64,000 nt of DNA from Terriglobia bacterium. Lineage in GTDB: Bacteria > Acidobacteriota > Terriglobia > 20CM-2-55-15. The notes under the pieces were generated by a model. The model was not told the DNA's origin. It searched no databases and saw only the letters and a list, made by a program, of their open reading frames with translations. Positions 14,626 to 60,785 of this stretch are shown here, piece by piece. The DNA lies in contig CBDAOY010000007.1 of NCBI GenBank assembly GCA_965198225.1, positions 384,001-448,000 on the forward strand, given 5' to 3'. Each line of letters starts with the position of its first letter. The stretch's first letter is position 1. The position numbers were made by a program, and so were the translations under genes.

Positions 14626-17600
14626 TCAACAAAGCTCTCCGGAATCTTCCAAACCAAATCGCTGTAGTTCAAACTCGGTCAATCTTTTCTCGAAGAGGCG
14701 CGAACACGCCAGATCTATCAGCGGCTCATCGGCAACGGTCCAGACGCGTGCTTCGCTATCCCAAGAGGCCGTCACGACACGTGTCCCGTCCGGGTTGAAA
14801 ACGGCCGTGGTCACCCTCCCCTCATGGCCCCTCAGTACGACTGGTTCTCCGCCGCGCTCTGCCGCCCAGATTCGGGCGGTGCCATCGTCAGACGTGGTCA
14901 CCACCCGTGCCCCGTCCTGGCTGAAAACGGCTGTGTTTATCATCCGCTCATGGCCTATCAGCACGATTGGTTCGCCGCTGCCGTCTACCGCCCATATTCG
15001 TGCGGTGAAATCAGTGGAGCCGGTCACCACACGCGCTCCGTCGTGGCTGAAAGCGGCCGTGGTTACCCTCCCCTCATGGCCCCTCAGCACGACTAGTTCT
15101 CCACCGCGCTCTGCCGCCCAGATTCGGGCGGTGCCATCGTCAGAGGCGGTCACCACACGCGTTCCGTCCGGGCTGAAAGCGGCCGCGCCTACCCGATCGT
15201 CATGGATGAGGACGATTGGCTCGCTGCCACCGTCTGTTGCCCATATTCGCGCGGTGCCATCACCAGAGACGGTCACCACACGGCTCCCATCCGGGCTGAA
15301 AGCAGCCTCGTACACCCAATCCTCATGCCCGCTTAGGACGGTCGGTTCGTCGCTGCCGTCCGCTGCCCAGATTCGTGCCGTGCCATCTTGAGAAGCAGTC
15401 ACAACACGTGTCCCGTTTCGACTGAAGGCAGCTGTGTATACCAAAGCGCTATGGCCTCTCAGCACGATTGATTCGCCGCTGCCGTCTGCCGCCCAGACCC
15501 GTGCGGTACCATCCCAGGACGCGGTCACAACGCGTGTTCCGTCGGCGCTAAATGCGGCTGTGCGCACCTCCTCCTCGTGGTCCCTCAGTACGATGGGTTG
15601 GCCGCTGCCGTCTGCCGTCCAGATCCGTGCGGTGCCATCGCTAGAGGCGGTCACCACACGTGTTCCGTCTCGCGAGAATGAGGCTGTCTGTATGTTGTCC
15701 TCGTGGCCTCTCAAGACGGTTGGTTCTCCGCTGTCGCCCACCGCCCAGACCCGTGCAGTGCCATCTTTAGCGCCGGTCACCACCTGCGTTCCGTCCCGGC
15801 TGAAAACGGCTGTGTATACCAGAGTGTTATGGCCACCCAGGACGATGGGTTCACCGCTACCGTCTGCCGCCCAGACCCGTGCGGAAGAATCGTCGGAGGT
15901 CGTCACGACGCGTGTTCCATCGGGGCTGAAGACGGCTGTGCGGACAGTATTCTCATGACCTCTTAAGAGAATTGGATCGCTGTTGCCGTCTGCCGCCCAG
16001 ACCCGTGCGGTACCTTCATTGGAGACGGTTACGACACGCATTCCGTCCGGGCTGAAAGCGGCTGAATATACGCCGGCCTCATGGTCCAGAATCACGGGGT
16101 CCCTGCCGCCGTCAGCTGCCCAGACCCGCACGGTGCCATCACTAGAGGCGGTTACCACACGCGCTCCGTCAGGGCTGAAAGCGGCCGTGTTTACCCAATC
16201 CCTATGGCCCCACAGGACGATTGGTTCGCCGCTGCCGTTCGCCGCCCAGACCCGTGCGCTGCCATCCCAAGAGGCGGTCACCACGCGCGTTCCGTCGGCG
16301 CTAAACGCGGCTGTGCTCACCGTCTCCTCGTGGCCCCTCAGTACGACTGGTTCTCCGCCGCCCTCAGCCGCCCAGACGCGTGCGGTGTCATCCCAAGAGG
16401 CCGTCACCACGCGTGTTCCATCTGGGTTGAAAGCGGCGGTAAGAACCCGACCGTCATGTCCCCTCAGGACGACCGGTTCTCCGCCACCCTCTACCGCCCA
16501 GATTCGTGCGCTGCCGTCCAAAGAGGCGGTCACCACGCGCGTTCCGTCGGCGCTAAACGCGGCTGTGCGCACCTCCTCCTCGTGGCCCCTCAAGACGATT
16601 GGTTCACCGCGGCAGTCGGCCGCCCAGACCCGCGCGGCAGAATCAACGGAGACGGTAACGACGCGTGTTCCGTCGGGGCTGAAAGCGGCTGTGGTTACGT
16701 CACCGCCTTGGCCACGACATATTGCCCGCTCGTGGTTCGCTAGCGCACTGGCGTATAGAGCAGACCAAACTGATGGCAGAACACTGGAACCCCCCATCGG
16801 CGTCATTTCCAACGTTCGTGCAATTCTGAGAGCCGACAACGAAAGGCGTGTAGCTGTCGCACCGCGGCCGGCTTCGACCTCAGAGAAGGAAAGTGCAGTG
16901 AGTGCACCTACCCGGTTTACGCGTGCGGTTCTTTCGTTCGCTCGGGCTTCTCTTGCATTCTCTTGGGCCGCTCTATCGTTCGCTTCGGCCTCTTGGAGGT
17001 TTTGTTGGGCTAACTCCCGTTGGTGCAAAGCATAGCCACCCAATCCGGTGAGGACGACAATCAGCACGGCCGCCGTGCTCGCCCAGATCTGGCGCTGTCT
17101 GCGCTTGCGCGCTTCGTCGCGCTGTTCTATCTCGGCTCGCTCGCGATCATAGATCCGCGCAAGCAGGCTGTACCATGCATCTCGGAAGCGTCCGCGGTCG
17201 ATTTTTCCTTTGCGCTGGTCGAAGCCCCGATAATCAATCGCCAGCGGCGTCGCCACTTTCTCAAGGAGCGCTCGTGAAAACGCGGCTTCGTTAGGGGCTG
17301 ATTTGGCCTCGTTGTTGGGCAGCCCGGCAGCAAGCACCGGAATGACATCGTTCGTGCTACGCGCTGAGAGGAAGCGTCGGATCTCGTCGTCCACAAACTC
17401 ACTGCGCGCCGCCGCCGGCGTACAGATGACAATCAGTTTGCGCGCGGCATGCAGTGATTTCTCAATTGACTTGTGATAATCGCTTCCAACCAAATCTTCC
17501 TGGTCGCGGAAGACATCAATCCTCTTGGCCTCAAGCCCGATTCCAGACGGCGGCTTGAATCTTTCTAACCCACGCGCCAGCCGCTCGGCGAAACCTTTGT

Positions 17601-17685
17601 CTGAACGACTGTAGCTAACAAAGGCGTCGTAACGATTGTCCTCCGTTTGGCTCTGACCGGTTCCCGTCTCGGGCTTCGCTGGCAC
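14626..17685 (-). CDS. TIR - transmembrane - WD40 (16 repeats) protein
   Basis: YDAFVSYSRSD..SEFVDDEI TIR; TM AVLIVVLTGLGGYAL; 16 GH..AAFSPDG..ARVW repeats; GTG start at 17685 with AGGAGG RBS. Confidence 0.9.
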   Translation of the reverse strand: MPAKPETGTGQSQTEDNRYDAFVSYSRSDKGFAERLARGLERFKPPSGIGLEAKRIDVFRDQEDLVGSDYHKSIEKSLHAARKLIVICTPAAARSEFVDDEIRRFLSARSTNDVIPVLAAGLPNNEAKSAPNEAAFSRALLEKVATPLAIDYRGFDQRKGKIDRGRFRDAWYSLLARIYDRERAEIEQRDEARKRRQRQIWASTAAVLIVVLTGLGGYALHQRELAQQNLQEAEANDRAAQENAREARANERTARVNRVGALTALSFSEVEAGRGATATRLSLSALRIARTLEMTPMGGSSVLPSVWSALYASALANHERAICRGQGGDVTTAAFSPDGTRVVTVSVDSAARVWAADCRGEPIVLRGHEEEVRTAAFSADGTRVVTASLDGSARIWAVEGGGEPVVLRGHDGRVLTAAFNPDGTRVVTASWDDTARVWAAEGGGEPVVLRGHEETVSTAAFSADGTRVVTASWDGSARVWAANGSGEPIVLWGHRDWVNTAAFSPDGARVVTASSDGTVRVWAADGGRDPVILDHEAGVYSAAFSPDGMRVVTVSNEGTARVWAADGNSDPILLRGHENTVRTAVFSPDGTRVVTTSDDSSARVWAADGSGEPIVLGGHNTLVYTAVFSRDGTQVVTGAKDGTARVWAVGDSGEPTVLRGHEDNIQTASFSRDGTRVVTASSDGTARIWTADGSGQPIVLRDHEEEVRTAAFSADGTRVVTASWDGTARVWAADGSGESIVLRGHSALVYTAAFSRNGTRVVTASQDGTARIWAADGSDEPTVLSGHEDWVYEAAFSPDGSRVVTVSGDGTARIWATDGGSEPIVLIHDDRVGAAAFSPDGTRVVTASDDGTARIWAAERGGELVVLRGHEGRVTTAAFSHDGARVVTGSTDFTARIWAVDGSGEPIVLIGHERMINTAVFSQDGARVVTTSDDGTARIWAAERGGEPVVLRGHEGRVTTAVFNPDGTRVVTASWDSEARVWTVADEPLIDLACSRLFEKRLTEFELQRFGLEDSGELC

Positions 17686-17815
17686 GTCACGTTCCTCCTG
17701 AAAGGCTCGATTCCAACAGGTACTCTGGCAAATTACTCTAGGTGATTGGGCTTCAACTTCATAGGCTAAATGTGGGTGTGATGGGTACGACCTCGGTGGA
17801 CATTGACAATGTAGC

Positions 17816-17935
17816 TCATCCGAGCTTCTCACGAAGCGCTTCGTAGGGCGTCTTGCCCTGAAACGCTCCGTGTGGACGGTGGTAGTTGTAGAAGTTCTCC
17901 CATTCCGCGAGCTTCGCGGTGAGGTCGACGTCACG
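17816..17935 (-). pseudogene. IS481/IS3-like DDE transposase C-terminal remnant
   Basis: KLAEWENFYNYHRPHGAFQGKTPYEALREKL. Confidence 0.75.
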
Positions 17936-37471: not shown

Positions 37472-38785
37472 ATGACCACCACCGAACCCACCGTCACGAC
37501 CCGGGCATCTGCAGGCGACCCGTCTCTGATCTCGACCGGCAGCTGGGTTATCTACGACCTTGCCAATACGATTTTCTCTTTCAACATCGTGTCGTTCTAT
37601 TTCGTGCTGTGGGTGACGAACGTTATGGGGGGAACGGATGCCGACTACGGCTACGCAAACTCCATCTCGATGGCCGTTGTTTTCTTCCTGTCCCCTGTGC
37701 TGGGCGCCCTGACCGATCAGGCTCCGAAACGAATGCCTTTCCTCGTCATCTCCACCGTGATCTGCGTGGCCCTGACGTTTCTACTCGGTTCCGGTGGATT
37801 GACGTTTTCGCTCGTGTTTTTCGCCTGCGCCAACGTCGCCTACCTGGCCGGCCTCCAGTTCTACGACGCTCTGTTGCCCGAGGTCAGCACCGAGGCGACT
37901 CGGGGCCGGGTCAGCGGTGTGGGCGTCGGCGTGGGCTACCTGGGTTCGTTCATCGGGCTCGCAGTCGGAGCGATGATTCTGGGCCTGGAAATCGACTCTC
38001 TGCCGGTGGCGGAGCAGGCGGTTCGCTACCGCACGGTTTTCCTTCTGACGGGATTCCTGTTTCTGACGTTTGCGATCCCCTGCTTTTTGTTCGTACAGGA
38101 GCGAGGACGTCCGGGGCGCCGGTTCTCCAGCTCTTCGGTGGGCGCGGCATTCCACCAGGTTGCGACGACGTTCCGACACTCCCGGCGGTATCCCGGCCTG
38201 CTGCGCTTCCTTATCGGCCGGATGTTCTACACCGACGCCGTCAACACCGTCATCATCTTCATGGGCGTGTACGTCGTCAACGAGGTAGGTTTCGGGACAG
38301 TGATGGCTCAGGTGGTGCTCCTGGTTGCTATCCTCTTCGCCGTCGTCGGTGGTCTCGTTTGGGGACGAATCGTCGATCGAATCGGCCCGAAACGCTCGCT
38401 GACGATCGTGCTGCGACTGTGGATGGTCGTGTTCAGCTGGACCGCCCTGGTCGGGTTCCTGCCCGTGCCGAGCTGGACGTTCTGGCCCGTGCCGGTCCTG
38501 GCGGGTATCGCGCTGGGCGGGACCTGGACGGCCGATCGTCCCTATATGCTGCGTCTGACGCCACCCGCGCGAGTCGGCGAGTTTTACGGCCTCTACGGGA
38601 TGGTCGGCCGTTTTGCGGCGATTCTCGGACCCGCTCTCTGGGGCCTGATCGTCAACACACTGGGTTTGGGGCGACCGGTCGCGGTGACGACATTGTTGGT
38701 CGCCATCCTGATCAGCTACTTCATCCTCCGTCCCGTTTCCGACGAACGTAGAGACTGGCCCGCGGAAGAACGAATCCCGGCCTGA
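37472..38785 (+). CDS. MFS transporter (UMF1/Atg22-like)
   Basis: SWVIYDLAN, FYDALLPEV, GEFYGLY; ~12 TM. Confidence 0.88.
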   Translation: MTTTEPTVTTRASAGDPSLISTGSWVIYDLANTIFSFNIVSFYFVLWVTNVMGGTDADYGYANSISMAVVFFLSPVLGALTDQAPKRMPFLVISTVICVALTFLLGSGGLTFSLVFFACANVAYLAGLQFYDALLPEVSTEATRGRVSGVGVGVGYLGSFIGLAVGAMILGLEIDSLPVAEQAVRYRTVFLLTGFLFLTFAIPCFLFVQERGRPGRRFSSSSVGAAFHQVATTFRHSRRYPGLLRFLIGRMFYTDAVNTVIIFMGVYVVNEVGFGTVMAQVVLLVAILFAVVGGLVWGRIVDRIGPKRSLTIVLRLWMVVFSWTALVGFLPVPSWTFWPVPVLAGIALGGTWTADRPYMLRLTPPARVGEFYGLYGMVGRFAAILGPALWGLIVNTLGLGRPVAVTTLLVAILISYFILRPVSDERRDWPAEERIPA

Positions 38786-38859
38786 GTTTCCGTCCTTTTG
38801 CCCGAATTTCATGGGACGGTCCGGGGCGAGCCTGCTATCGTCGAATCGATGTTGTATCG

Positions 38860-39177
38860 AGTCAGGCTGCCCGAGCCTTCTATTACCTCGGCTCCGCGCT
38901 ATACAAGCTCGACCATTTGGAATACGCCGAAACGAGCCTCGAGTGGTCGCTCGGCCATGACGAAGTGATCCCGGACGCGCGACTGATGCTGGTCAACATC
39001 TACATGAAGCAGCGCCGGTACCGCGAAGCCGCCGATCAACTGACAGTCTACCTGGTAGAGTTTCCGGACAGTCCTCAACGGAAGGGTGTCGAAAAGATGC
39101 TGGACGACATCCGCAAGGTCCTGCAGCAGTCGCCCGGACAATCGCAGTCCTGTGTCTTCTGCAGTCGGGAAGAATAA
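38860..39177 (+). pseudogene. C-terminal fragment of a TPR protein
   Basis: YYLGSALYKL..DARLMLVNIYMKQRRYREAADQLTVYLVEFPDSP; no proper start. Confidence 0.5.
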
Positions 39178-39191
39178 TCCGTCGGAAGGGC

Positions 39192-39685
39192 AAAAAAAAT
39201 GGAAAGGGGCCAACTGTCCGCTTGCTCTCGCCACTAGTTGCTCGAGCACGGGACTGATTCTCCGGCGAGCCCTCGATCGCAGGGCTGATCATGATTCGAT
39301 CGTGAGTTGCCCCACTTTCTCTTCGCGGTCCGATCAACTCCCTTCAGGCTTTGCGAGTTGCCCCGCGCCGCCGTCCGGAGGCTGATTCAAGCTCCGTTCG
39401 GTCCACGAGTTGCCCCGCTTCCCTCCCTTTGCTTGACCTTCAAACTCTGACTGAGACGCGAGTTGCCCCGCTCCTCGTCCAGGGTTTGAGTCAGACTCTG
39501 CTCGGTCTGCGAGTTGCCCCGCATTCCGCTCAGGGTCTGATTCAGACTCTTCTCGATTTGCGAGTTGCCCCGCTCCTCGTTCAGGATCTGAGTCGGTCTC
39601 TGGTCGGCCTGCGAGTTGCCCCGCATTCCGTTCAGAAACCGTGCCGGGTCGTCAATCTCTAACGATCAGCTAACCCCTTACCGAG
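39192..39685 (-). ncRNA. Candidate multi-arm structured ncRNA, copy A (7 GNRA-capped arms)
   Basis: GCGGG-GCAA-CTCGC hairpin at 39302, 39353, 39405, 39458, 39509, 39560, 39611 (period 51-53); closing helix 39667-39677 with 39206-39216; U-tract; paralogue at 43078-43373. Confidence 0.78.
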
Positions 39686-39689
39686 CAGT

Positions 39690-39718
39690 AGAATCTACCT
39701 TTCTCGGAATCCTGTCAA
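39690..39718 (-). promoter_or_regulatory. sigma70-like promoter of ncRNA copy A
   Basis: TTGACA at 39713-39718; TAGATT (15-nt spacer) or GATTCT (17-nt spacer); conserved in copy B. Confidence 0.6.
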
Positions 39719-39929
39719 TATAGAAAATTTTGCGCGCCATTGCTCATGTATAGTACTGAATACAAGTAGTTTAACGTGTATGCGAATATCTTGCGTCGAT
39801 CACAGAACGGCGCGGTGGGAAATGTTGCAATTTTCGCTATTTGAGGTGCGCGAAGTGCGCCCTGCGCTCGGTTATGGTCAGACCTCCTCGCCTAACGCCT
39901 CACCTGTCTTTTGGGCTGCCTGTTCGGGG

Positions 39930-40060
39930 TTCCACGAACTATGCAGGCGTCCCAAAGGGTCGCGATGGCGGGACACAAGACCCGGTCCGTTTTGACGGGT
40001 ACAACATCGTCAACGAGGACGACATTCCGGAGGCCGGACAAGCCGTCGCAGCCTCCTTCA
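39930..40060 (+). pseudogene. Tyrosine recombinase (integrase) C-terminal remnant
   Basis: Frameshifted AGVP..VAM..GHKTRSV/FDGYNIVNEDDI (box II His and catalytic Tyr region). Confidence 0.65.
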
Positions 40061-40142
40061 CCGATCCATGGGCACAGTTCCCGCACAGATCGCAGAAATC
40101 CATGAGGAAAGGAAAATAGCCGAGATGCAAAGTATTTGAGAC

Positions 40143-40198
40143 TGGATGCCGAAAGGGGGTTTCGAACCCCAAGTCCCTGGCGGACAATAGATCCTGAA
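40143..40198 (-). pseudogene. Degenerate 3' half of tRNA-Leu(CAG), att-site-like
   Basis: TTCAGGA anticodon loop, long variable arm, GGGG-TTCGAAA-CCCC T-arm, ends CGGCATCCA; 5' half absent. Confidence 0.65.
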
Positions 40199-40355
40199 GG
40201 CGTCCTGTGAAAGGGTTGGTTTGTTGATGAAAGCTTAGTCTTTCAACTCATCCACGGATTCTTAGCCAATGGAAAACGTGAAAAGTTGTGTCAAGTTAAT
40301 TGTGGAGCGGGCAAGAAGCCGGCGGCCCGCGAAGTAACCACCGGCCTCGTTAACC

Positions 40356-42851
40356 TTAGGGTCGGGCCGGGCAGTCATCGGTTGGGAAATACTGCAGGCA
40401 TTCCTGGGCTGTTAAGTCGCGAAATATGCGCGCGCGCGCGCGTTCGAGCAAACTCTCGATTTCGCGTGCCCATATCTTGGCCGTCCCATCCTGGCTCGCG
40501 GTGGCGACTCGCGTCCCGTCCCCGCTGAACGCCACCCCATACACATCGCCGCCGTGGCCGCTCAGGGTCCGCAACTCCTGCCCCGTTGCCGCATCCCATA
40601 TCTTGGCCGTCCCATCGACGCTCGCGGTGGCGACTCGCGTTCCGCCCCCGCTGAACGCCACGCCATACACATCGGTGCCGTGGCCGCTCAGGGTAAGCAA
40701 CTCTTTCCCGGTTGCCGCATCCCATATCTTGGCCGTCCCATCGGCGCTCGCGGTGCTCACCCGCGTCCCGTCCCCGTTGAACGCAACCCCAATCAAAATG
40801 GTGTCGTGGCCGCTCAGGGTAAGCAAGTCCTCCCCGGTTGCTGTATCCCATATCTTGGCAGTCCCATCCTCGCTCGTGGTGGCCACTCGTGTCCCATTCC
40901 CGCTAAACGCCACCGCATACAGATAGGGCTCGTGGCCGCTCAGGGTAAGCAAGTCCTCCCCGGTTGTCGCATCCCATATCTTGGCCGTCCCATCCTGGCT
41001 CGCGGTGGCGACTCGCGTCCCGTCCCCGCTGAACGCCACGCCATACACACCGGCGTCGTGGCCTCTCAGGGTAAGCAACTCTTCCCCGGTTGTCGCATCC
41101 CATATCTTGGCCGTCCCATCCTGGCTCGCGGTGGCGACTCGCGTCCCGTCCCCGCTGAACGCCACGCCATACACACCGGCGTCGTGGCCTCTCAGGGTCC
41201 GCGACTCCTCCCCGGTCGTCGCATCCCATATCTTGGCCGTCCCATCGGCGCCCGCCGTGCCCACCCGCGCCCCGTCCCCGCTGAACGCCACGCCATACAC
41301 ACCGGCGTCGTGGCCGCTCAGGGTCCGCAATTCCTCCCCGGTTGCCGCATCCCAAATCTTGACCGTGCCATCGGCGCTCGTCGTGCCCACCCGCGTCCCG
41401 TCCCCGTTGAACGCCACGCCATACACATCGCCGCCGTGCCCGCTCAGGGTAAGCAACTCCTGCCCGGTTGCCGCATCCCATGTCTTAGCCGTCCCATCGA
41501 CGCTCCCGGTGGTCAGTCGCGTCCCGTCCCCGCTGAACGCCACCCCATACAAAGAGTCTTCGTGGCCGCTCAGGGTCCGCAACTCTTCCCCGGTTGCCGC
41601 ATCCCATATCTTGGCCGTCCGATCGACGCTCGCGGTGGCGACTCGCGTCCCGTCCCCGCTGAACGCCACCCCATACAGATAGTCTTCGTGGCCGCTCAGG
41701 GTAAGCAACTCCTGCCCGGTTGCCGCATCCCAAATCTTGGCCGTCCCATCGACACTCGCGGTGGCGACTCGCGTTCCGCCCCCGCTGAACGCCACGCCAT
41801 ACACATCGGCGTCGTGGCCGCTCAGGGTCCGCAACTCCTGCCCGGTTGCCGCATCCCAAATCTTGGCCGTCCCATCGGCGCTCGCGGTGGCGACTCGCGT
41901 CCCGTCCCCGCTGAACGCCACCCCATACACATCGGCGTCGTGGCCGCTCAGGGTCCGTTCGACAAAAGATGTCGCGACGGCCCGGTAGAGCACGCCTTCT
42001 GCGACCGGAAGTGTATCCCCGCCGAAATTGTGAGTGGCCTGTACCGCATGCACTCCCAAAATGACGCTAAGTTCCGGATCTTGGGACAGGCTGCCTTCCG
42101 CGTAGGCGGCTAGTTCCCGCGCCCGGCCTTCTCGTCCGTTTTCTTCAGCGATGAAGGTCTGTTGAACGGCGTAGGACACGGCAAGAACGGCGAGAACGAG
42201 TGCCGCCATCGCCACTGATAAATAGGCCTTGAGTCGCGAGCGCATCCTCCTCTCTTTTTGCAAATCTTGTTCTAAGTCTTGCCTGGAGGTAACATTCTCG
42301 CTCTCGCGGATTCCACCGATGATGCGCTCGCGAATGTTAGTCCGGATGTCGTCGCGCTCCTGCGAAGACAGGAGTTCCCACTTCCCGGGCTGAACAGGCA
42401 GGCGCTGCGCGTTTGGCCAGCGTGCTTGCACAACGTCGGGTGTCCATCGGGCGCCCTCTCCCGTTGAATCGATAAGAATTGGTGCGACGTGACGGTTGGC
42501 CAACCACCAGTCCAGTTCCTTGTGGACCCAATCGTCCACGCCTCGATTCGGGAAAGCGCCCGGCGAGCACACAAGAAGCATCGCCCGCGCCCGCTGTAGC
42601 GCCGGCTCGTGAACGCGAGTCCAGTCGTCGACAGCGGGAGCCGATTGATCGTAGTAGAGCTCAAGCTCGGGCGGCGCGTCGTATCCATCGGGGATAAAGG
42701 GGAGGGGTTGCCTGTGAAGAGTCTCGTAAAGCCACTCTGCGGCTCCACCTCCGTCGACTTGGCGATAGCAGATGAAGATGTCCCAGGTTGCAGGGGGGCG
42801 TGCGGGTTCACTCCCTTCAGCGCTGGGGTTATTAGTGTGGTCTGCCGACAT
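40356..42851 (-). CDS. TIR - transmembrane - WD40 (12 near-identical repeats) protein
   Basis: WDIFICYRQVD..DWVHKELDWW TIR; TM helix; 12 x 126-bp repeats LSGH..VYGVAFSGDGTRVATAS.DGTAKIWD. Confidence 0.9.
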   Translation of the reverse strand: MSADHTNNPSAEGSEPARPPATWDIFICYRQVDGGGAAEWLYETLHRQPLPFIPDGYDAPPELELYYDQSAPAVDDWTRVHEPALQRARAMLLVCSPGAFPNRGVDDWVHKELDWWLANRHVAPILIDSTGEGARWTPDVVQARWPNAQRLPVQPGKWELLSSQERDDIRTNIRERIIGGIRESENVTSRQDLEQDLQKERRMRSRLKAYLSVAMAALVLAVLAVSYAVQQTFIAEENGREGRARELAAYAEGSLSQDPELSVILGVHAVQATHNFGGDTLPVAEGVLYRAVATSFVERTLSGHDADVYGVAFSGDGTRVATASADGTAKIWDAATGQELRTLSGHDADVYGVAFSGGGTRVATASVDGTAKIWDAATGQELLTLSGHEDYLYGVAFSGDGTRVATASVDRTAKIWDAATGEELRTLSGHEDSLYGVAFSGDGTRLTTGSVDGTAKTWDAATGQELLTLSGHGGDVYGVAFNGDGTRVGTTSADGTVKIWDAATGEELRTLSGHDAGVYGVAFSGDGARVGTAGADGTAKIWDATTGEESRTLRGHDAGVYGVAFSGDGTRVATASQDGTAKIWDATTGEELLTLRGHDAGVYGVAFSGDGTRVATASQDGTAKIWDATTGEDLLTLSGHEPYLYAVAFSGNGTRVATTSEDGTAKIWDTATGEDLLTLSGHDTILIGVAFNGDGTRVSTASADGTAKIWDAATGKELLTLSGHGTDVYGVAFSGGGTRVATASVDGTAKIWDAATGQELRTLSGHGGDVYGVAFSGDGTRVATASQDGTAKIWAREIESLLERARARIFRDLTAQECLQYFPTDDCPARP

Positions 42852-43077: not shown

Positions 43078-43373
43078 AAAAAAAAAGGAGGGGTCAGCCG
43101 TCGCCGCTCTCGCCACTAGTATGCGTGAGCCCGGAATCGACTCTCCGGCCAGGCCCCCGATCGTCAGAGCCTGTGTCAGACCCTCATCGGTTTTGCGAGT
43201 TGCCCCGCATCCCCTCTTCGGGCCTGCTTCAAACTCCGTCCGGCTTGCGAGTCGCCCCATAAGCCGTCCAGGGCTTGAATCGGCTCCTGATCGCTCTGCG
43301 AGTTACCCCGCAAATCCGTTCAGAAGCCATGCCGGGTCATCAATCTGGTTGCGATCAGCTAACCCCAACCGCG
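43078..43373 (-). ncRNA. Candidate multi-arm structured ncRNA, copy B (3 arms)
   Basis: Hairpins at 43195, 43247, 43298 with GCAA/GCGA/GUAA loops; closing helix 43356-43366 with 43090-43100; U9 tract. Confidence 0.78.
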
Positions 43374-43377
43374 CAGT

Positions 43378-43406
43378 AGAATCTACCTTTCTCGGTAGGG
43401 TGTCAA
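43378..43406 (-). promoter_or_regulatory. sigma70-like promoter of ncRNA copy B
   Basis: TTGACA at 43401-43406 followed by CCGAGAAAGGTAGATTCTACTGC, identical to copy A. Confidence 0.6.
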
Positions 43407-43633
43407 TACAGAAAAATTTGCGCTGTTAATATTGATAAAAGTACTGATACTAAATGTGTTAACAGGTGCATGCATTCGCTGCGTCCGGGCTCGTGTCCAC
43501 GACCGTAACAAATTGCAATTTGCCGTTCGAATGCTTCCAAACCGCGTTTTCGGAGGGCCCGAACGCGGGTGTTTCCTGAGATAATGATGGCCAGATGGCG
43601 CAGTTGTTCGGAAACGCTGCGGAGGAGGTCCCT

Positions 43634-60161: not shown

Positions 60162-60785
60162 ATGAGGAAGCAAGCTGGCAGGTGGCTTGCGATGGCCGCC
60201 GTAGTGGTCGTGTCTTTCGGGATGGCGGCATGCGCCGACGAACAGGGTGAGAATACTGATGGGGCGAGTGGTTCCGGCGTCGCGCTCGAGGCCGAAGGTG
60301 AGCGGGCGGGTCCCGAGGCCGATGGCGAGCAAGCCGGGTCCGAAGGCGAAGGTGAGCACGGTGGGTCTGAAGGCGAAGGTGAGCACGGTGGGTCCGAAGG
60401 CGAAGGTGAGCACGGTGGGTCCGAAGGCGAAGGTGGTCCGAATTCTTCGGGCGAAGGTGAGCATGGCGAAGGGGAGGAGGGAGAAGAGTCGGGCGAGTAT
60501 ATCGGGCGGGAGGATACCTGGGACGCGACACGGAGAGGGGCGAGGCTCGTTTTGTCCCTCGATCCCGCGTCAAACGCCTTCGTAGGCACAGTCGAAAACA
60601 CGACCGGACAGACGCTCTGTGCCGTTCGAGTCGAGATCCACCTGTCTACGGGCATCGAGCTGGGCCCAACGGAGCGAACGGATCTTCCCTCCGGCGAAAC
60701 GACAGTCGTGGAGTTGTCGACCGAAGGAGAGGCTTTCGACACCTGGACAGCCCACCCCGAGGTCTCGTCCTGTGCCGGCGGGTAA
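60162..60785 (+). CDS. Lipoprotein with Glu/Gly/His-rich tandem repeats
   Basis: Lipobox MAAC; 27-bp repeats encoding GSEGEGEHG; small C-terminal beta domain. Confidence 0.75.
   Translation: MRKQAGRWLAMAAVVVVSFGMAACADEQGENTDGASGSGVALEAEGERAGPEADGEQAGSEGEGEHGGSEGEGEHGGSEGEGEHGGSEGEGGPNSSGEGEHGEGEEGEESGEYIGREDTWDATRRGARLVLSLDPASNAFVGTVENTTGQTLCAVRVEIHLSTGIELGPTERTDLPSGETTVVELSTEGEAFDTWTAHPEVSSCAGG

What the first reader, a model, noticed from the sequence alone, without database searches (positions are those of the whole stretch)
39302..39660. Compensatory changes define each repeat as one long irregular hairpin and fix the strand
Basal stems covary arm by arm: CGGUUUCU/AGAGACCG, UCAGAUCCU/AGAGUCUGA, UCAGACCCU/AGAGUCUGA, UCAAACCCU/AGAGUUUGA, UCAAGC/GCUUGA, and UGGCUUCU/AGGAGCCG in copy B. 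The cap GCGGG/CUCGC becomes GUGGG/CUCAC in arm 7, and loops vary only within GNRA (GCAA, GUAA, GCGA). The two 9-nt middle segments keep a covarying core (CGG/CCG to CGA/UCG) flanked by purine-purine mismatches, typical of protein-binding internal loops. G-U pairs work only on the minus strand. Arms 1-4 alternate CGGAAU/CGAGGA, suggesting duplication of a 102-nt two-arm unit.
Basis: seen in the sequence. Interest (0 to 1): 0.8.

Follow-up and report, generated by a model that had tools for sequence, protein, structure and literature searches.

The report
Small RNA with amplified hairpin arms
The repeats are seven tandem copies of one hairpin inside a small non-coding RNA gene that belongs to a previously undescribed RNA family of one group of Acidobacteria, where relatives carry the hairpin only once.

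Summary
Window 39283-39643 carries seven ~51-nt units on the minus strand. Each folds as a long irregular hairpin capped by GCGGGGCAACUCGC. Three more units lie at 43177-43329. On the 10 arms, 82% of cells pair (25-41% when slid) and 12 of 19 pairs change on both sides.

The arrays are the middle of two paralogous sRNA genes, about 490 nt and 295 nt. Each has its own TTGACA-N17-GATTCT promoter, a 5'/3' closing stem and a U-run. A covariance model shows they are expanded members of a ~200-nt sRNA family with one arm. The family was found in 12 of 34 genomes of the same family (record titles: Terriglobia, Solibacteraceae, Acidobacteria). It was found in 0 of 130 genomes of other families of the class, and it has no Rfam match. 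The same genome also holds a canonical one-arm copy and a ~100-nt mini copy.

Contigs from four runs filed or guessed as RNA (three studies) cover 39206-39682. One strain variant in them carries two compensatory pair changes.

Function is inferred, not shown. The likeliest reading is a multivalent display of a sequence-specific hairpin for an unknown partner. A bolder reading is open: two other loops hold self-complementary hexamers that stay palindromic across the family, which suggests RNA-RNA self-association.

The parts
39192..39684 (-). sRNA gene 'copy A', about 490 nt. It has a 5' leader, seven arms, hairpin 2, hairpin 3, the 3' strand of the closing stem and a U-run.
   Evidence: The start is predicted 6-8 nt after the -10 hexamer and the end at the U-run. 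MFE is -229.7 kcal/mol, z = -5.95. Contigs of four runs filed or guessed as RNA cover 39206-39682.
39690..39733 (-). Promoter of copy A: upstream motif GCAAAATTTTC (39733-39723), -35 TTGACA (39718-39713), 17-nt spacer, -10 GATTCT (39695-39690).
   Evidence: It is shared with copy B and, as GCAAATCTTTCGCGTTGAC-N17/18-nATTAT or GATTCT, with every one-arm relative inspected. The generic sigma-70 scan did not call it because GATTCT is too far from TATAAT.
39667..39677 (-). 5' strand of the closing stem, GGGGUUAGCUG.
   Evidence: It pairs with 39216-39206 in the MFE. The same strand in copy B pairs with a 3' strand that differs at three positions, each giving U-G/U-A, G-U/G-C or U-A/U-G. All are compatible on the minus strand only.
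39593..39642 (-). Arm A1 (cap 39624-39611).
   Evidence: 8.95 expected basal pairs.
39542..39591 (-). Arm A2 (cap 39573-39560).
   Evidence: 7.72.
39491..39540 (-). Arm A3 (cap 39522-39509).
   Evidence: 8.81.
39440..39489 (-). Arm A4 (cap 39471-39458).
   Evidence: 8.28.
39387..39436 (-). Arm A5 (cap 39418-39405, ends ...CUCGU).
   Evidence: 6.08.
39334..39386 (-). Arm A6 (cap 39366-39353).
   Evidence: 5.87. A strain variant keeps pairs 39379/39340 and 39372/39347 through changes on both sides.
39284..39333 (-). Arm A7, degenerate (cap GUGGGGCAACUCAC, 39315-39302).
   Evidence: The cap forms (4.70 of 5 pairs) but the basal stem does not (0.31).
39268..39286 (-). Hairpin 2 of copy A. Its loop UGCGAUCGA holds the palindrome CGAUCG (39279-39274).
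   Evidence: It is homologous to hairpin 2 of the family (GAACCC-AACGAUCGA-GGGUUU). Mean unpaired probability is 0.94.
39222..39248 (-). Hairpin 3 of copy A. Its loop holds the palindrome ACUAGU (39238-39233).
   Evidence: ACUAGUGGCGAGAGC is shared with copy B (the MAFFT alignment did not place these 3' tails in register). Unpaired probability is 0.99.
39192..39216 (-). 3' strand of the closing stem, CAGUUGGCCCC (39216-39206), then UUUCCA and U8 (39199-39192).
   Evidence: The generic terminator scan found none because the stem is long-range.
43078..43372 (-). sRNA gene 'copy B', about 295 nt. It has the same leader, three arms, hairpin 2 (CGAUCG 43163-43158), hairpin 3 (ACUAGU 43120-43115), a closing stem and a U-run (43086-43078).
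   Evidence: MFE is -155.5 kcal/mol, z = -7.27..
43378..43421 (-). Promoter of copy B: GCAAATTTTTC, -35 TTGACA (43406-43401), 17-nt spacer, -10 GATTCT (43383-43378).
43280..43329 (-). Arm B1 (cap GCGGGGUAACUCGC, 43311-43298).
   Evidence: 8.38.
43229..43278 (-). Arm B2 (cap AUGGGGCGACUCGC, 43260-43247).
   Evidence: 8.96.
43177..43226 (-). Arm B3 (cap 43208-43195).
   Evidence: 7.69.

Best explanation
SHOWN. The repeats are not a free-standing array. They are the amplified 'arm' domain of two paralogous stand-alone sRNA genes on the minus strand: copy A (about 39684-39192, seven arms) and copy B (about 43372-43078, three arms). Both belong to a structured ~200-nt sRNA family that is absent from Rfam and was found only in one acidobacterial family. 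The family fold is a 5'/3' closing stem followed by a U-run, inner helices, a three-way junction carrying one arm, a second hairpin and a third hairpin. In this genome the arm was multiplied in tandem from 1 to 3 and to 7, probably partly as a 102-nt two-arm unit. Each new arm has kept its hairpin through compensatory changes. The 14-nt cap stayed almost invariant: 90% identity among arms against 41-52% for the rest of the arm.

INFERRED. That conservation pattern means the stems are needed only as stems, whereas the cap with its GNRA loop and the adjoining purine-purine internal loop is read by sequence. The most likely working is therefore a multivalent platform. One transcript presents 3 or 7 copies of the same recognition hairpin to a partner that the one-arm relatives bind once, and so titrates or scaffolds it. 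The partner is unknown, and a protein is the more likely kind. The closing stem keeps the whole RNA compact and, with the U-run, probably ends transcription and protects the ends.
For: Gene anatomy: copies A and B align outside the arms. The promoter and 5' leader align directly, and the shared 3' tail is seen by reading both. The closing stem shows changes compatible with the minus strand only.

Family: arm model R1 finds single arms in 3 of 3 same-genus genomes and in two genomes of a second genus (G047, G005); a 27.6-bit G019 hit, which scores on both strands, I take for spurious. These lie in ~200-nt genes with the same promoter motif and a U-run. Full model R2 matches 12 of 34 genomes of the family (genera g1 3/3 plus own, g10 2/2, g3 4/5, g4 2/5, seven other genera 0/18). 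It matches 0 of 130 genomes in 12 other families of the class. On 23 members, 93.2% of cells pair and 43 of 59 pairs change on both sides, against 27-46% paired when slid (that alignment is fitted to the model).

No Rfam match at gathering score in the window. Searches to E = 10 on 39000-40300 and to E = 1 on four relatives' loci gave only chance-level rows.

Arms. Differential conservation.

The own genome also has a canonical one-arm copy (C6:895846-896064, 121 bits) and a ~100-nt mini copy made of closing stem plus one arm (C7:503164-503324).

RNA libraries: contigs of 4 runs from 3 studies (3 runs filed as RNA, X8 only guessed RNA) lie on 39206-39682. Single-contig word depths reach 5848 (X10) and 3100 (X12). 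Contigs of two studies begin at 39206/39209 and one ends at 39682, without loose ends. Those places are 7-10 nt from the U-run and at the predicted start. This is a weak hint only.

Strain variant (X10 record 1): of 15 listed differences, 2 pairs are changed on both sides and kept, 3 single changes keep pairing, 2 break it, and 6 lie in unpaired positions, including loop GCAA to GCGA.
Against: No partner is identified and nothing shows binding or titration.

The arm is the least conserved domain of the family. Of 23 one-arm members, 15 have a GNRA loop (GCAA 13, GUAA 2), 2 have UUGC(C), 2 have CGUAU, 3 have a short arm ending in AACCUAGG, and 1 is aberrant. So the cap is not essential to the family as a whole, and amplification of a tolerant domain could be neutral.

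No neighbouring gene is conserved with the RNA.

The multi-arm form was found in this genome only among the 34 genomes searched.

The RNA evidence is from assembled contigs, which show neither strand, ends nor level. No DNA run was laid beside them.

The intrinsic-terminator scan found nothing, so termination by the long-range stem is inferred.
Confidence: 0.55

Rival explanations
1. Reiterated base-pairing modules, as in NrsZ. The transcript is cut between arms into ~51-nt hairpins, and each pairs through its cap or loop with the same target RNA. More arms then mean more regulator per transcript.
For: NrsZ of Pseudomonas is made as one transcript with three similar stem-loops that carry an identical loop motif. 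It is processed into short modules, and one module suffices for regulation (PMC4253122: abstract and passages). Here the cap is near-identical in all arms. Hfq is encoded in the genome. The canonical copy in the same genome, and the third copy of G003, carry the loop UUGC(C), the reverse complement of GCAA, on otherwise similar stems. Those hairpins are antisense to the arms.
Against: GNRA tetraloops on a 5-6-bp G+C stem are closed and poor seeds. The 14-nt cap has no complementary copy anywhere else in the genome: 0 forward matches of the degenerate pattern. Contigs cannot show processing, and the short contigs in X10 break at repeat boundaries, as assembly would produce. The linkers between arms are only 1-3 nt.
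Confidence: 0.15
2. RNA-only self-assembly. Hairpins 2 and 3 carry self-complementary loops that pair between molecules by kissing. The GNRA-capped arms add contacts or spacing, and more arms change the valency or geometry of the assembly.
For: The hairpin-2 loop holds a 6-nt palindrome in 23 of 23 one-arm members, in three versions: CGAUCG 8, AGAUCU 13, CGGCCG 2. It also does in both window copies. The hairpin-3 loop holds CCAUGG in 19 of 23, CCGCGG in the own canonical copy, and ACUAGU in both window copies.

The central two positions changed together three times (AU to GC twice, AU to UA once). That cannot be explained by pairing within a 4-9-nt loop.

In genus g1 the hairpin-2 loop is AA-CGAUCG-A: a 6-nt palindrome flanked by purines, as described for the HIV-1 dimerisation site (PMC7357161, passages). 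The loops are predicted unpaired, 0.82-0.99. Self-interacting kissing loops hold GOLLD cages together (PMC12286853, passages). RNAs under 200 nt can form cages and filaments (bioRxiv 10.64898/2026.07.01.735769, abstract).
Against: The outer positions of each hexamer can be read as an ordinary closing pair of a tetraloop, so only three double changes need an intermolecular reading. Three members break the hairpin-3 palindrome: L043 CCACGG, L051 CCAGGG and L049. In L049 hairpin 2 is a perfect hairpin down to a GAUC loop, so palindromy may partly be hairpin symmetry. The ~100-nt mini copy lacks both hairpins. No experiment or cofolding that handles kissing was possible here. This idea concerns hairpins 2 and 3 more than the repeats themselves.
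Confidence: 0.15
3. A CsrA sponge. The arms display GGA motifs that titrate a CsrA homologue.
For: Nine of 10 arms (all but A7) have GGA at the same place, 5' of the cap (ACGGAAU, CGAGGAG, ACGGAUU and so on). The genome encodes two CsrA homologues. One sits next to FliW and one is an orphan of 70 aa. The sites are multiple and about 51 nt apart.
Against: The GGA lies in the paired core or internal loop, not in an apical loop. By my reading of the alignment, it is missing from about a third of the one-arm relatives (for example GCAGAAUG, CUGAAUG, GCGGUAUG). The best-conserved element, the cap, has no GGA. CsrA occurs in 32 of 34 genomes of the family but the RNA in only 12. No Rfam Csr or Rsm model matches.
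Confidence: 0.08
4. Neutral or selfish expansion. Tandem duplication happened in the family's most tolerant domain, and the extra arms do nothing beyond not harming the RNA.
For: The arm is the variable domain of the family. The multi-arm form was found in one genome of 34. Arm 7 is decaying. One RNA-library contig has an extra two-arm unit, so copy number may still be changing (table 5).
Against: Two separate genes both carry expanded arrays. Nine of 10 arms keep a full hairpin despite 40-50% divergence of their stems. Twelve of 19 pairs show changes on both sides. The cap is held at 90% identity. A strain variant again changes pairs on both sides. Gene conversion could hold the cap but would not produce compensatory stem changes.
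Confidence: 0.1
5. Something other than an sRNA: a protein with 17-residue repeats, a CRISPR array, a type III antitoxin array, or dispersed REP/MITE palindromes.
For: The period of 51 is a multiple of 3, and ORFs of 103 aa (plus strand) and 79 aa (minus strand) run through the array.
Against: The ORFs have no Pfam family above threshold. Spacings of 52 and 53 nt break the period. The variation is compensatory in RNA pairs. The variable parts pair with each other, so they are not spacers. Downstream on the same strand there is no toxin-sized gene: copy A meets a convergent TPR fragment and copy B is followed by an 831-aa WD40 gene. There are only two loci in the genome, each with a promoter and a U-run.
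Confidence: 0.02

Closest known systems
NrsZ of Pseudomonas aeruginosa (PMC4253122)
   Same: A stand-alone sRNA gene whose transcript carries several similar stem-loop modules with the same conserved apical sequence. The reiterated module is the functional unit.
   Different: There is no sequence or Rfam relationship. The NrsZ modules expose an 8-12-nt loop that base-pairs with a target, and they are separated by spacer hairpins. Here the loop is a closed GNRA tetraloop, the arms abut each other, the whole array is enclosed by a 5'/3' stem, and processing is not shown.
CsrB / RsmY / RsmZ protein-sponge RNAs
   Same: A highly structured sRNA with many reiterated hairpins, whose number differs between relatives, presenting the same short motif. 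The proposed working (titration by multivalency) is the same.
   Different: The motif here is a 14-nt cap plus a purine-rich internal loop, not GGA in an apical loop. It does not track CsrA across genomes. No Rfam match.
GOLLD, ROOL and OLE RNAs, and the HIV-1 dimerisation initiation site
   Same: Conserved self-complementary loops. In genus g1 the hairpin-2 loop has a 6-nt palindrome flanked by purines, as in the HIV-1 site (PMC7357161). Self-interacting kissing loops are quaternary bridges in GOLLD (PMC12286853).
   Different: This RNA is much smaller than GOLLD, ROOL or OLE. There is no homology. Self-association is untested here, and the repeats in question are not themselves the palindromic loops.
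6S RNA
   Same: About 200 nt, with a 5'/3' closing stem, and sometimes several paralogues per genome.
   Different: A true 6S gene is found elsewhere in this genome (C6:230181-230371, 64.4 bits, above the cut-off). The fold here is a multi-branch junction, not one long helix with a central bubble.
ToxI-type type III antitoxin arrays
   Same: Tandem short structured RNA repeats under one promoter.
   Different: There is no endoribonuclease toxin gene downstream. Relatives have a single unit. Here the repeat units differ and covary, whereas ToxI units are, as I recall, near-identical.

Membership tests
   Copies A and B carry it with one extra base before TTGACA. Relatives. Own canonical copy.
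   Helix 1 of the family has 95.2% of cells paired, and 10 of 11 pairs change on both sides.
   R1, built from the 10 arms, finds the relatives' arms at 33-49 bits. R2 matches the window copies at 40-41 bits over the whole model.
   A: UGCGAUCGA. B: GACGAUCGG.
   It is replaced in both window copies by a different hairpin with an ACUAGU loop. I therefore file A and B as a divergent, expanded subfamily.
CsrB/Rsm sponge RNAs | Many GGA motifs exposed in apical loops or single strands. | tested here: not met
   GGA is present in 9 of 10 arms at that position, but in the paired core or internal loop. The apical loops are GNRA.
CsrB/Rsm sponge RNAs | Occurs together with CsrA. | tested here: inconclusive
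   CsrA is in 32 of 34 genomes and the RNA in 12 of 34.
6S RNA | Match to RF00013; a single long helix with a central bubble. | tested here: not met
   No match in the window. The real 6S is elsewhere.
Bacterial Y RNA | A Ro (TROVE) protein is encoded in the genome. | tested here: not met
   No PF05731 match in the own genome, which is 97% complete.
CRISPR array | Identical repeats separated by unrelated spacers. | tested here: not met
   The variable parts pair with each other within each unit.
Type III toxin-antitoxin (ToxIN-like) | A toxin gene directly downstream on the same strand. | tested here: not met
NrsZ | Processing into single stem-loop modules. | not testable with these tools
   Only assembled contigs were available.
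Self-assembling RNAs (kissing-loop homo-oligomers) | Loop self-complementarity kept through double changes. | tested here: inconclusive
   Three central double changes keep it and three members break it.

The most novel reading that the evidence does not exclude
The family is a self-associating RNA. Two DIS-like self-complementary loops let molecules join loop-to-loop into dimers, chains or closed assemblies. These are CGAUCG, AGAUCU or CGGCCG in hairpin 2, and CCAUGG, CCGCGG or ACUAGU in hairpin 3. Paralogues differ in these 'codes', so they would sort into separate assemblies. In this bacterium, whose RNA turns up in runs labelled sponge metagenome, two paralogues have in addition multiplied a GNRA-capped strut 3- and 7-fold. 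That would turn the unit into a multivalent scaffold, or into a sponge for the sister RNA whose loop UUGC is the exact complement of GCAA.
Probability: 0.15. Interest if true: 0.85.

Novelty: new variant of a known kind. Interest (0 to 1): 0.62.

Why it matters
No regulatory RNA of Acidobacteria turned up in my two literature searches aimed at this (listings only). This family is missing from Rfam 15.

The family gives a clean natural series of one, three and seven copies of the same structured module, plus a minimal 100-nt form, inside one genome and its relatives. Such a series is rare material for asking what reiteration of an RNA module buys a cell. Contigs matching the RNA occur in libraries filed as RNA from several studies.

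If the self-complementary loops mediate association, this would be a small and tractable natural example of RNA quaternary structure with paralogue-specific pairing codes.

For annotation, the practical points are these. The ORFs over 39351-39662 (+) and 39387-39626 (-) should not be called genes. Models R1 and R2 describe a family that could be added to RNA databases.

Tried and rejected
BLAST of copy B against 39 relatives found nothing outside the own genome. Only the covariance models found the relatives.

The generic promoter and terminator scan called neither the promoter nor the terminator of either gene. I rely on conservation instead.

Conserved gene neighbourhood: none. The flanks are an MFS transporter, a TPR fragment, a WD40 protein and dehydrogenase genes in the window. 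In G002 and G003 they are MacB-like permeases, a dicarboxylate symporter, a creatininase-like gene and DUF4177. Synteny between this genome and G002/G003 around the RNA genes is weak.

Pattern scan of genome contigs: 34 stretches, of which 9 are true by R2, all from genomes already found. The other 25 are chance.

Promoter-motif scan of metagenome contigs: 18 stretches. Three are true, one of them cut, and two are near-identical to G001 copies. No new multi-arm form appeared.

The promoter motif elsewhere in the genome marks only the canonical copy and the mini copy. Other near-matches lie beside a REP-like element and look coincidental.

Own-versus-neighbour counting of basal-strand complementarity was not discriminating, because the arms are alike and G-U is allowed (own 7.9, other 6.5 of 10). 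The ensemble calculation was.

Cover in RNA-library contigs: no contig of the four runs lay on 38700-39203 or on 39708-40350. No DNA run was laid, because the single call was used. Two contigs run on into unlike sequence at 39206 (X12) and 39674 (X10). Depth figures are per contig and cannot rank genes.

CsrA co-occurrence gave no signal.

ORFs across the repeats: one Pfam row, below threshold (Stonustoxin_helical, E = 0.019, 15.5 bits against a cut-off of 27), which I take for chance.

The tRNA-like fragment at 40130-40215 has no second copy in the genome, and ARAGORN calls no tRNA in the window.

Supplements of papers were not consulted.

Not in print, as far as searched: (listings) returned nothing on this RNA.
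Full report
WHAT IS THERE

On the minus strand of window 39283-39643 lie seven units of 51-53 nt. Each is built around the 14-nt cap GCGGGGCAACUCGC. A second locus at 43177-43329 has three more units. The cap pattern is far above chance: 9 matches against 1.27 expected, and 0 of 100 shuffles reach 9. In the whole 6.4-Mb genome it occurs only in these two loci, always on the minus strand.

Each unit folds on its own into a long irregular hairpin. From the base upwards it has:
- a basal stem of 6-10 pairs;
- a small internal loop;
- a 3-bp core (CGG/CCG or CGA/UCG);
- a purine-purine internal loop;
- a 5-6-bp cap stem with an invariant G-U;
- a GNRA loop.

It pairs 82.0% of 189 cells, against 73.6% in column shuffles (0 of 500 reach it) and 24.9-41.3% when the 3' partners are slid. 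Twelve of 19 pairs change on both sides. RNAalifold finds the same basal stem and cap on its own.

In the partition function of the full-length RNAs, the own-arm basal stems of A1-A6 and B1-B3 are expected to form 5.9-9.0 pairs. The alternative, pairing of a 3' strand with the next arm, is about 0 for A1-A4 and B1-B3 and at most 0.38 for A5 and A6. Arm A7 keeps its cap only.

The minus strand folds much better than shuffles (z = -5.95 for A, -7.27 for B). The plus strand does not fold nearly as well (z = -2.45). The observation and the structural reading are therefore confirmed.

THE REPEATS SIT INSIDE GENES

The two loci align well beyond the arms (the 3' tail is seen). They share:
- an upstream motif GCAAA(A/T)TTTTC;
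- a -35 TTGACA, 17 nt, and GATTCT;
- a leader GGGGUUAGCUGAUCG...AGAUUGA(C/U)GACCCGGCA;
- after the arms, a hairpin with the loop (U/G)(G/A)CGAUCG(A/G);
- a hairpin with ACUAGUGGCGAGAGC;
- the strand ...GGCCCC or ...GACCCC, followed by eight or nine U.

In both MFE folds the leader GGGGUUAGCUG pairs with that 3' strand. The three differences between A and B in the 3' strand give U-G/U-A, G-U/G-C and U-A/U-G. The arrays are thus enclosed by a 5'/3' closing stem in two stand-alone sRNA genes of about 490 nt and about 295 nt.

A WIDER FAMILY

BLAST found no relative. A covariance model of the arms (R1) found single arms in all three other genomes of the genus and in a second genus. Around each single arm lies a ~200-nt gene with the following parts:
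- the promoter motif GCAAATCTTTCGCGTTGACA-N17-(C/G)ATTAT;
- a closing stem and inner helices;
- a three-way junction with one arm;
- hairpin 2 (GAACCC-AACGAUCGA-GGGUUU);
- hairpin 3 with a CCAUGG loop;
- a U-run.

A model of this RNA (R2) gave these results:
- It matches 12 of the 34 genomes held for the family, in four of eleven genera.
- It matches none of 130 genomes sampled from twelve other families of the class.
- On 23 members, 93.2% of cells pair and 43 of 59 pairs change on both sides, against 27-46% paired when slid. That alignment is fitted to the model, which favours it.

Rfam 15 has no match at gathering score in the window. Looser searches of 39000-40300 and of four relatives' loci gave only chance-level rows. 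Titles of the public records that carry the RNA read Terriglobia, Solibacteraceae or Acidobacteria.

The genome of the window holds two more members outside the window. One is a canonical one-arm copy at C6:895846-896064. The other is a ~100-nt form at C7:503164-503324, consisting of the closing stem and a single GGAA-capped arm.

So the arm was multiplied from one to three and to seven in this lineage. The first arms of A and B are 76% alike. A1/A3 and A2/A4 are each 79% alike, as are A2/A3. Copies 102 nt apart are more alike than copies 51 nt apart.

WHAT THE CONSERVATION SAYS

Among the ten arms the cap is 90% identical, and the other four segments are 41-52% identical. The stems drifted but stayed paired, while the cap stayed the same. 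That is the signature of a module whose stem is scaffold and whose tip is read by sequence.

Across the whole family, however, the arm is the most variable domain. Of 23 members, 15 have GNRA loops, 2 have UUGC(C), 2 have CGUAU, 3 have a short arm ending in AACCUAGG, and 1 is aberrant. So the cap matters within the genus rather than for the family.

RNA EVIDENCE

The stretch is held by public runs, several of them filed as metatranscriptomes. I laid the contigs of four runs from three studies; three are filed as RNA and X8 is only guessed to be RNA. They lie on 39206-39682. Contigs of two studies begin at 39206 and 39209 without loose ends, and one ends at 39682. These places are 7-10 nt from the U-run and at the start predicted from the -10 hexamer.

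Single contigs have word depths up to 5848. Contigs cannot show strand, ends or level, and no DNA run was laid beside them. I count this as presence in RNA libraries plus a weak hint on the boundaries.

One contig is a diverged strain variant. Of its 15 listed differences:
- two pairs of arm A6 change on both sides and stay paired (U-G to A-U, G-C to A-U);
- three single changes keep a pair;
- two break one;
- six are unpaired, one of which turns GCAA into GCGA.

Another contig carries an extra unit of about 102-103 nt (table 5).

WHAT IT IS NOT

- Not 6S RNA. A true 6S gene is elsewhere in the genome.
- Not a Y RNA. No Ro protein is encoded.
- Not CRISPR. The variable parts pair with each other.
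- Not a type III antitoxin. No toxin gene lies downstream.
- Not coding. The repeat ORFs have no family, and the period is broken by spacings of 52 and 53 nt.
- Not tied to any neighbouring gene.

HOW IT MOST LIKELY WORKS

Shown: the gene anatomy, the fold, the family, the amplification, the differential conservation, and presence in libraries filed as RNA.

Inferred: the arms act as reiterated recognition hairpins, so that one RNA binds several copies of a partner that the one-arm relatives bind once. That makes it a sponge or scaffold. The partner is unknown.

CsrA is a weak candidate. GGA stands at the same place in nine of ten arms, and two CsrA genes exist. But the motif is not in apical loops, it is not conserved in the relatives, and CsrA is in 32 of 34 genomes against 12 for the RNA.

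A base-pairing, NrsZ-like reading remains possible. It has one point in its favour: the canonical copy of the same genome has the loop UUGC(C), the complement of GCAA, on a similar stem.

Neutral expansion cannot be excluded, but it fits poorly with the compensatory changes in two separate genes.

AN UNEXPECTED SIDE RESULT

Hairpin 2 carries a 6-nt palindrome in its loop in all 23 one-arm members and in both window copies, in three versions: CGAUCG, AGAUCU and CGGCCG. Hairpin 3 carries CCAUGG in 19 of 23 members, CCGCGG in the own canonical copy, and ACUAGU in both window copies.

The outer positions could be an ordinary closing pair. The two central positions, however, changed together three times, which pairing within a 4-9-nt loop cannot explain. 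Three members break the hairpin-3 palindrome.

In genus g1 the hairpin-2 loop, two purines, the palindrome and one purine, has the layout described for the HIV-1 dimerisation site. Self-interacting kissing loops bridge GOLLD cages. The loops are predicted unpaired. I rate loop-mediated self-association at about 15%. It is the most novel reading the data allow.

VERDICT

The object is two expanded paralogues of a new, lineage-restricted, structured sRNA family. The kind (an sRNA with reiterated stem-loop modules) is known. The family, its 1/3/7 series and its palindromic loops are new as far as Rfam 15 and my literature searches show.

Noticed in passing
G000:C6:895846-896064 (+), locus L038 1501-1719; outside the window: A canonical one-arm copy of the same sRNA family in the same genome. 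Its arm loop is UUGC(C), the reverse complement of the GCAA of the window arms, as in the third copy of G003 (L051). Its hairpin-3 palindrome is CCGCGG instead of CCAUGG.
   Followed up: partly
G000:C7:503164-503324 (-), locus L122; about 55 kb beyond the window end: A ~100-nt mini member of the family. It has the same promoter motif (GCACATCTTTCGTGTTGACA), a closing stem GGGGUCGAU/AUCGGCCCC, one arm GAACGGAGUA-CGGG[GGAA]CCCG and a U-run. Hairpins 2 and 3 are absent. z = -4.73. BLAST did not find it in 23 relatives.
   Followed up: partly
window 40130-40215 (-): A tRNA-like 3' fragment with a T-arm GGGGUUCGAAACCCC followed by an acceptor-like strand, lying between copy A's promoter and the WD40 gene. 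ARAGORN calls no tRNA and the fragment is unique in the genome. It may be a relic of an integration site.
   Followed up: partly
window 40356-42851 (-) and 14626-17934 (-): Two large ORFs (831 aa and 1102 aa) with 126-bp tandem repeats. The 831-aa ORF is a WD40 beta-propeller protein with 12 WD40 stretches, and it lies exactly between the two sRNA genes. The 1102-aa ORF was not scanned.
   Followed up: partly
window 38917-39177 (+): A short ORF (86 aa) with a weak TPR match (22.9 bits, below the cut-off of 25) that converges on the 3' end of copy A. It looks like the C-terminal remnant of a longer TPR gene.
   Followed up: no
G000:C7:818361(-), C7:667591(-), C7:523521(+), C6:1046529(+), C5:46681(+); outside the window: A dispersed REP-like element (hairpin GUGCGCUC-AUA-GAGCGCAC followed by CUACAC). 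It often lies just after a sequence resembling the sRNA promoter motif (GCACATCTTTCGAGCTTGA...).
   Followed up: no
window 39473-39575, in run X17 (table 5): One RNA-library contig goes back 103 nt, which means it carries an extra two-arm unit. Either arm number varies between strains or this is a repeat-assembly artefact. Seven-base insertions near 39282-39289 occur in contigs of all four runs.
   Followed up: no
window 60293-60435: A 27-nt tandem repeat (5.3 copies, 87% matches), probably a 9-residue repeat in a coding region. Not examined.
   Followed up: no
G000:C2:30887-31012 (-), locus L099 1417-1629: An orphan second CsrA homologue of 70 aa, away from the fliW-csrA pair at C9:545629-546310. 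Most genomes of the family have two CsrA genes.
   Followed up: partly
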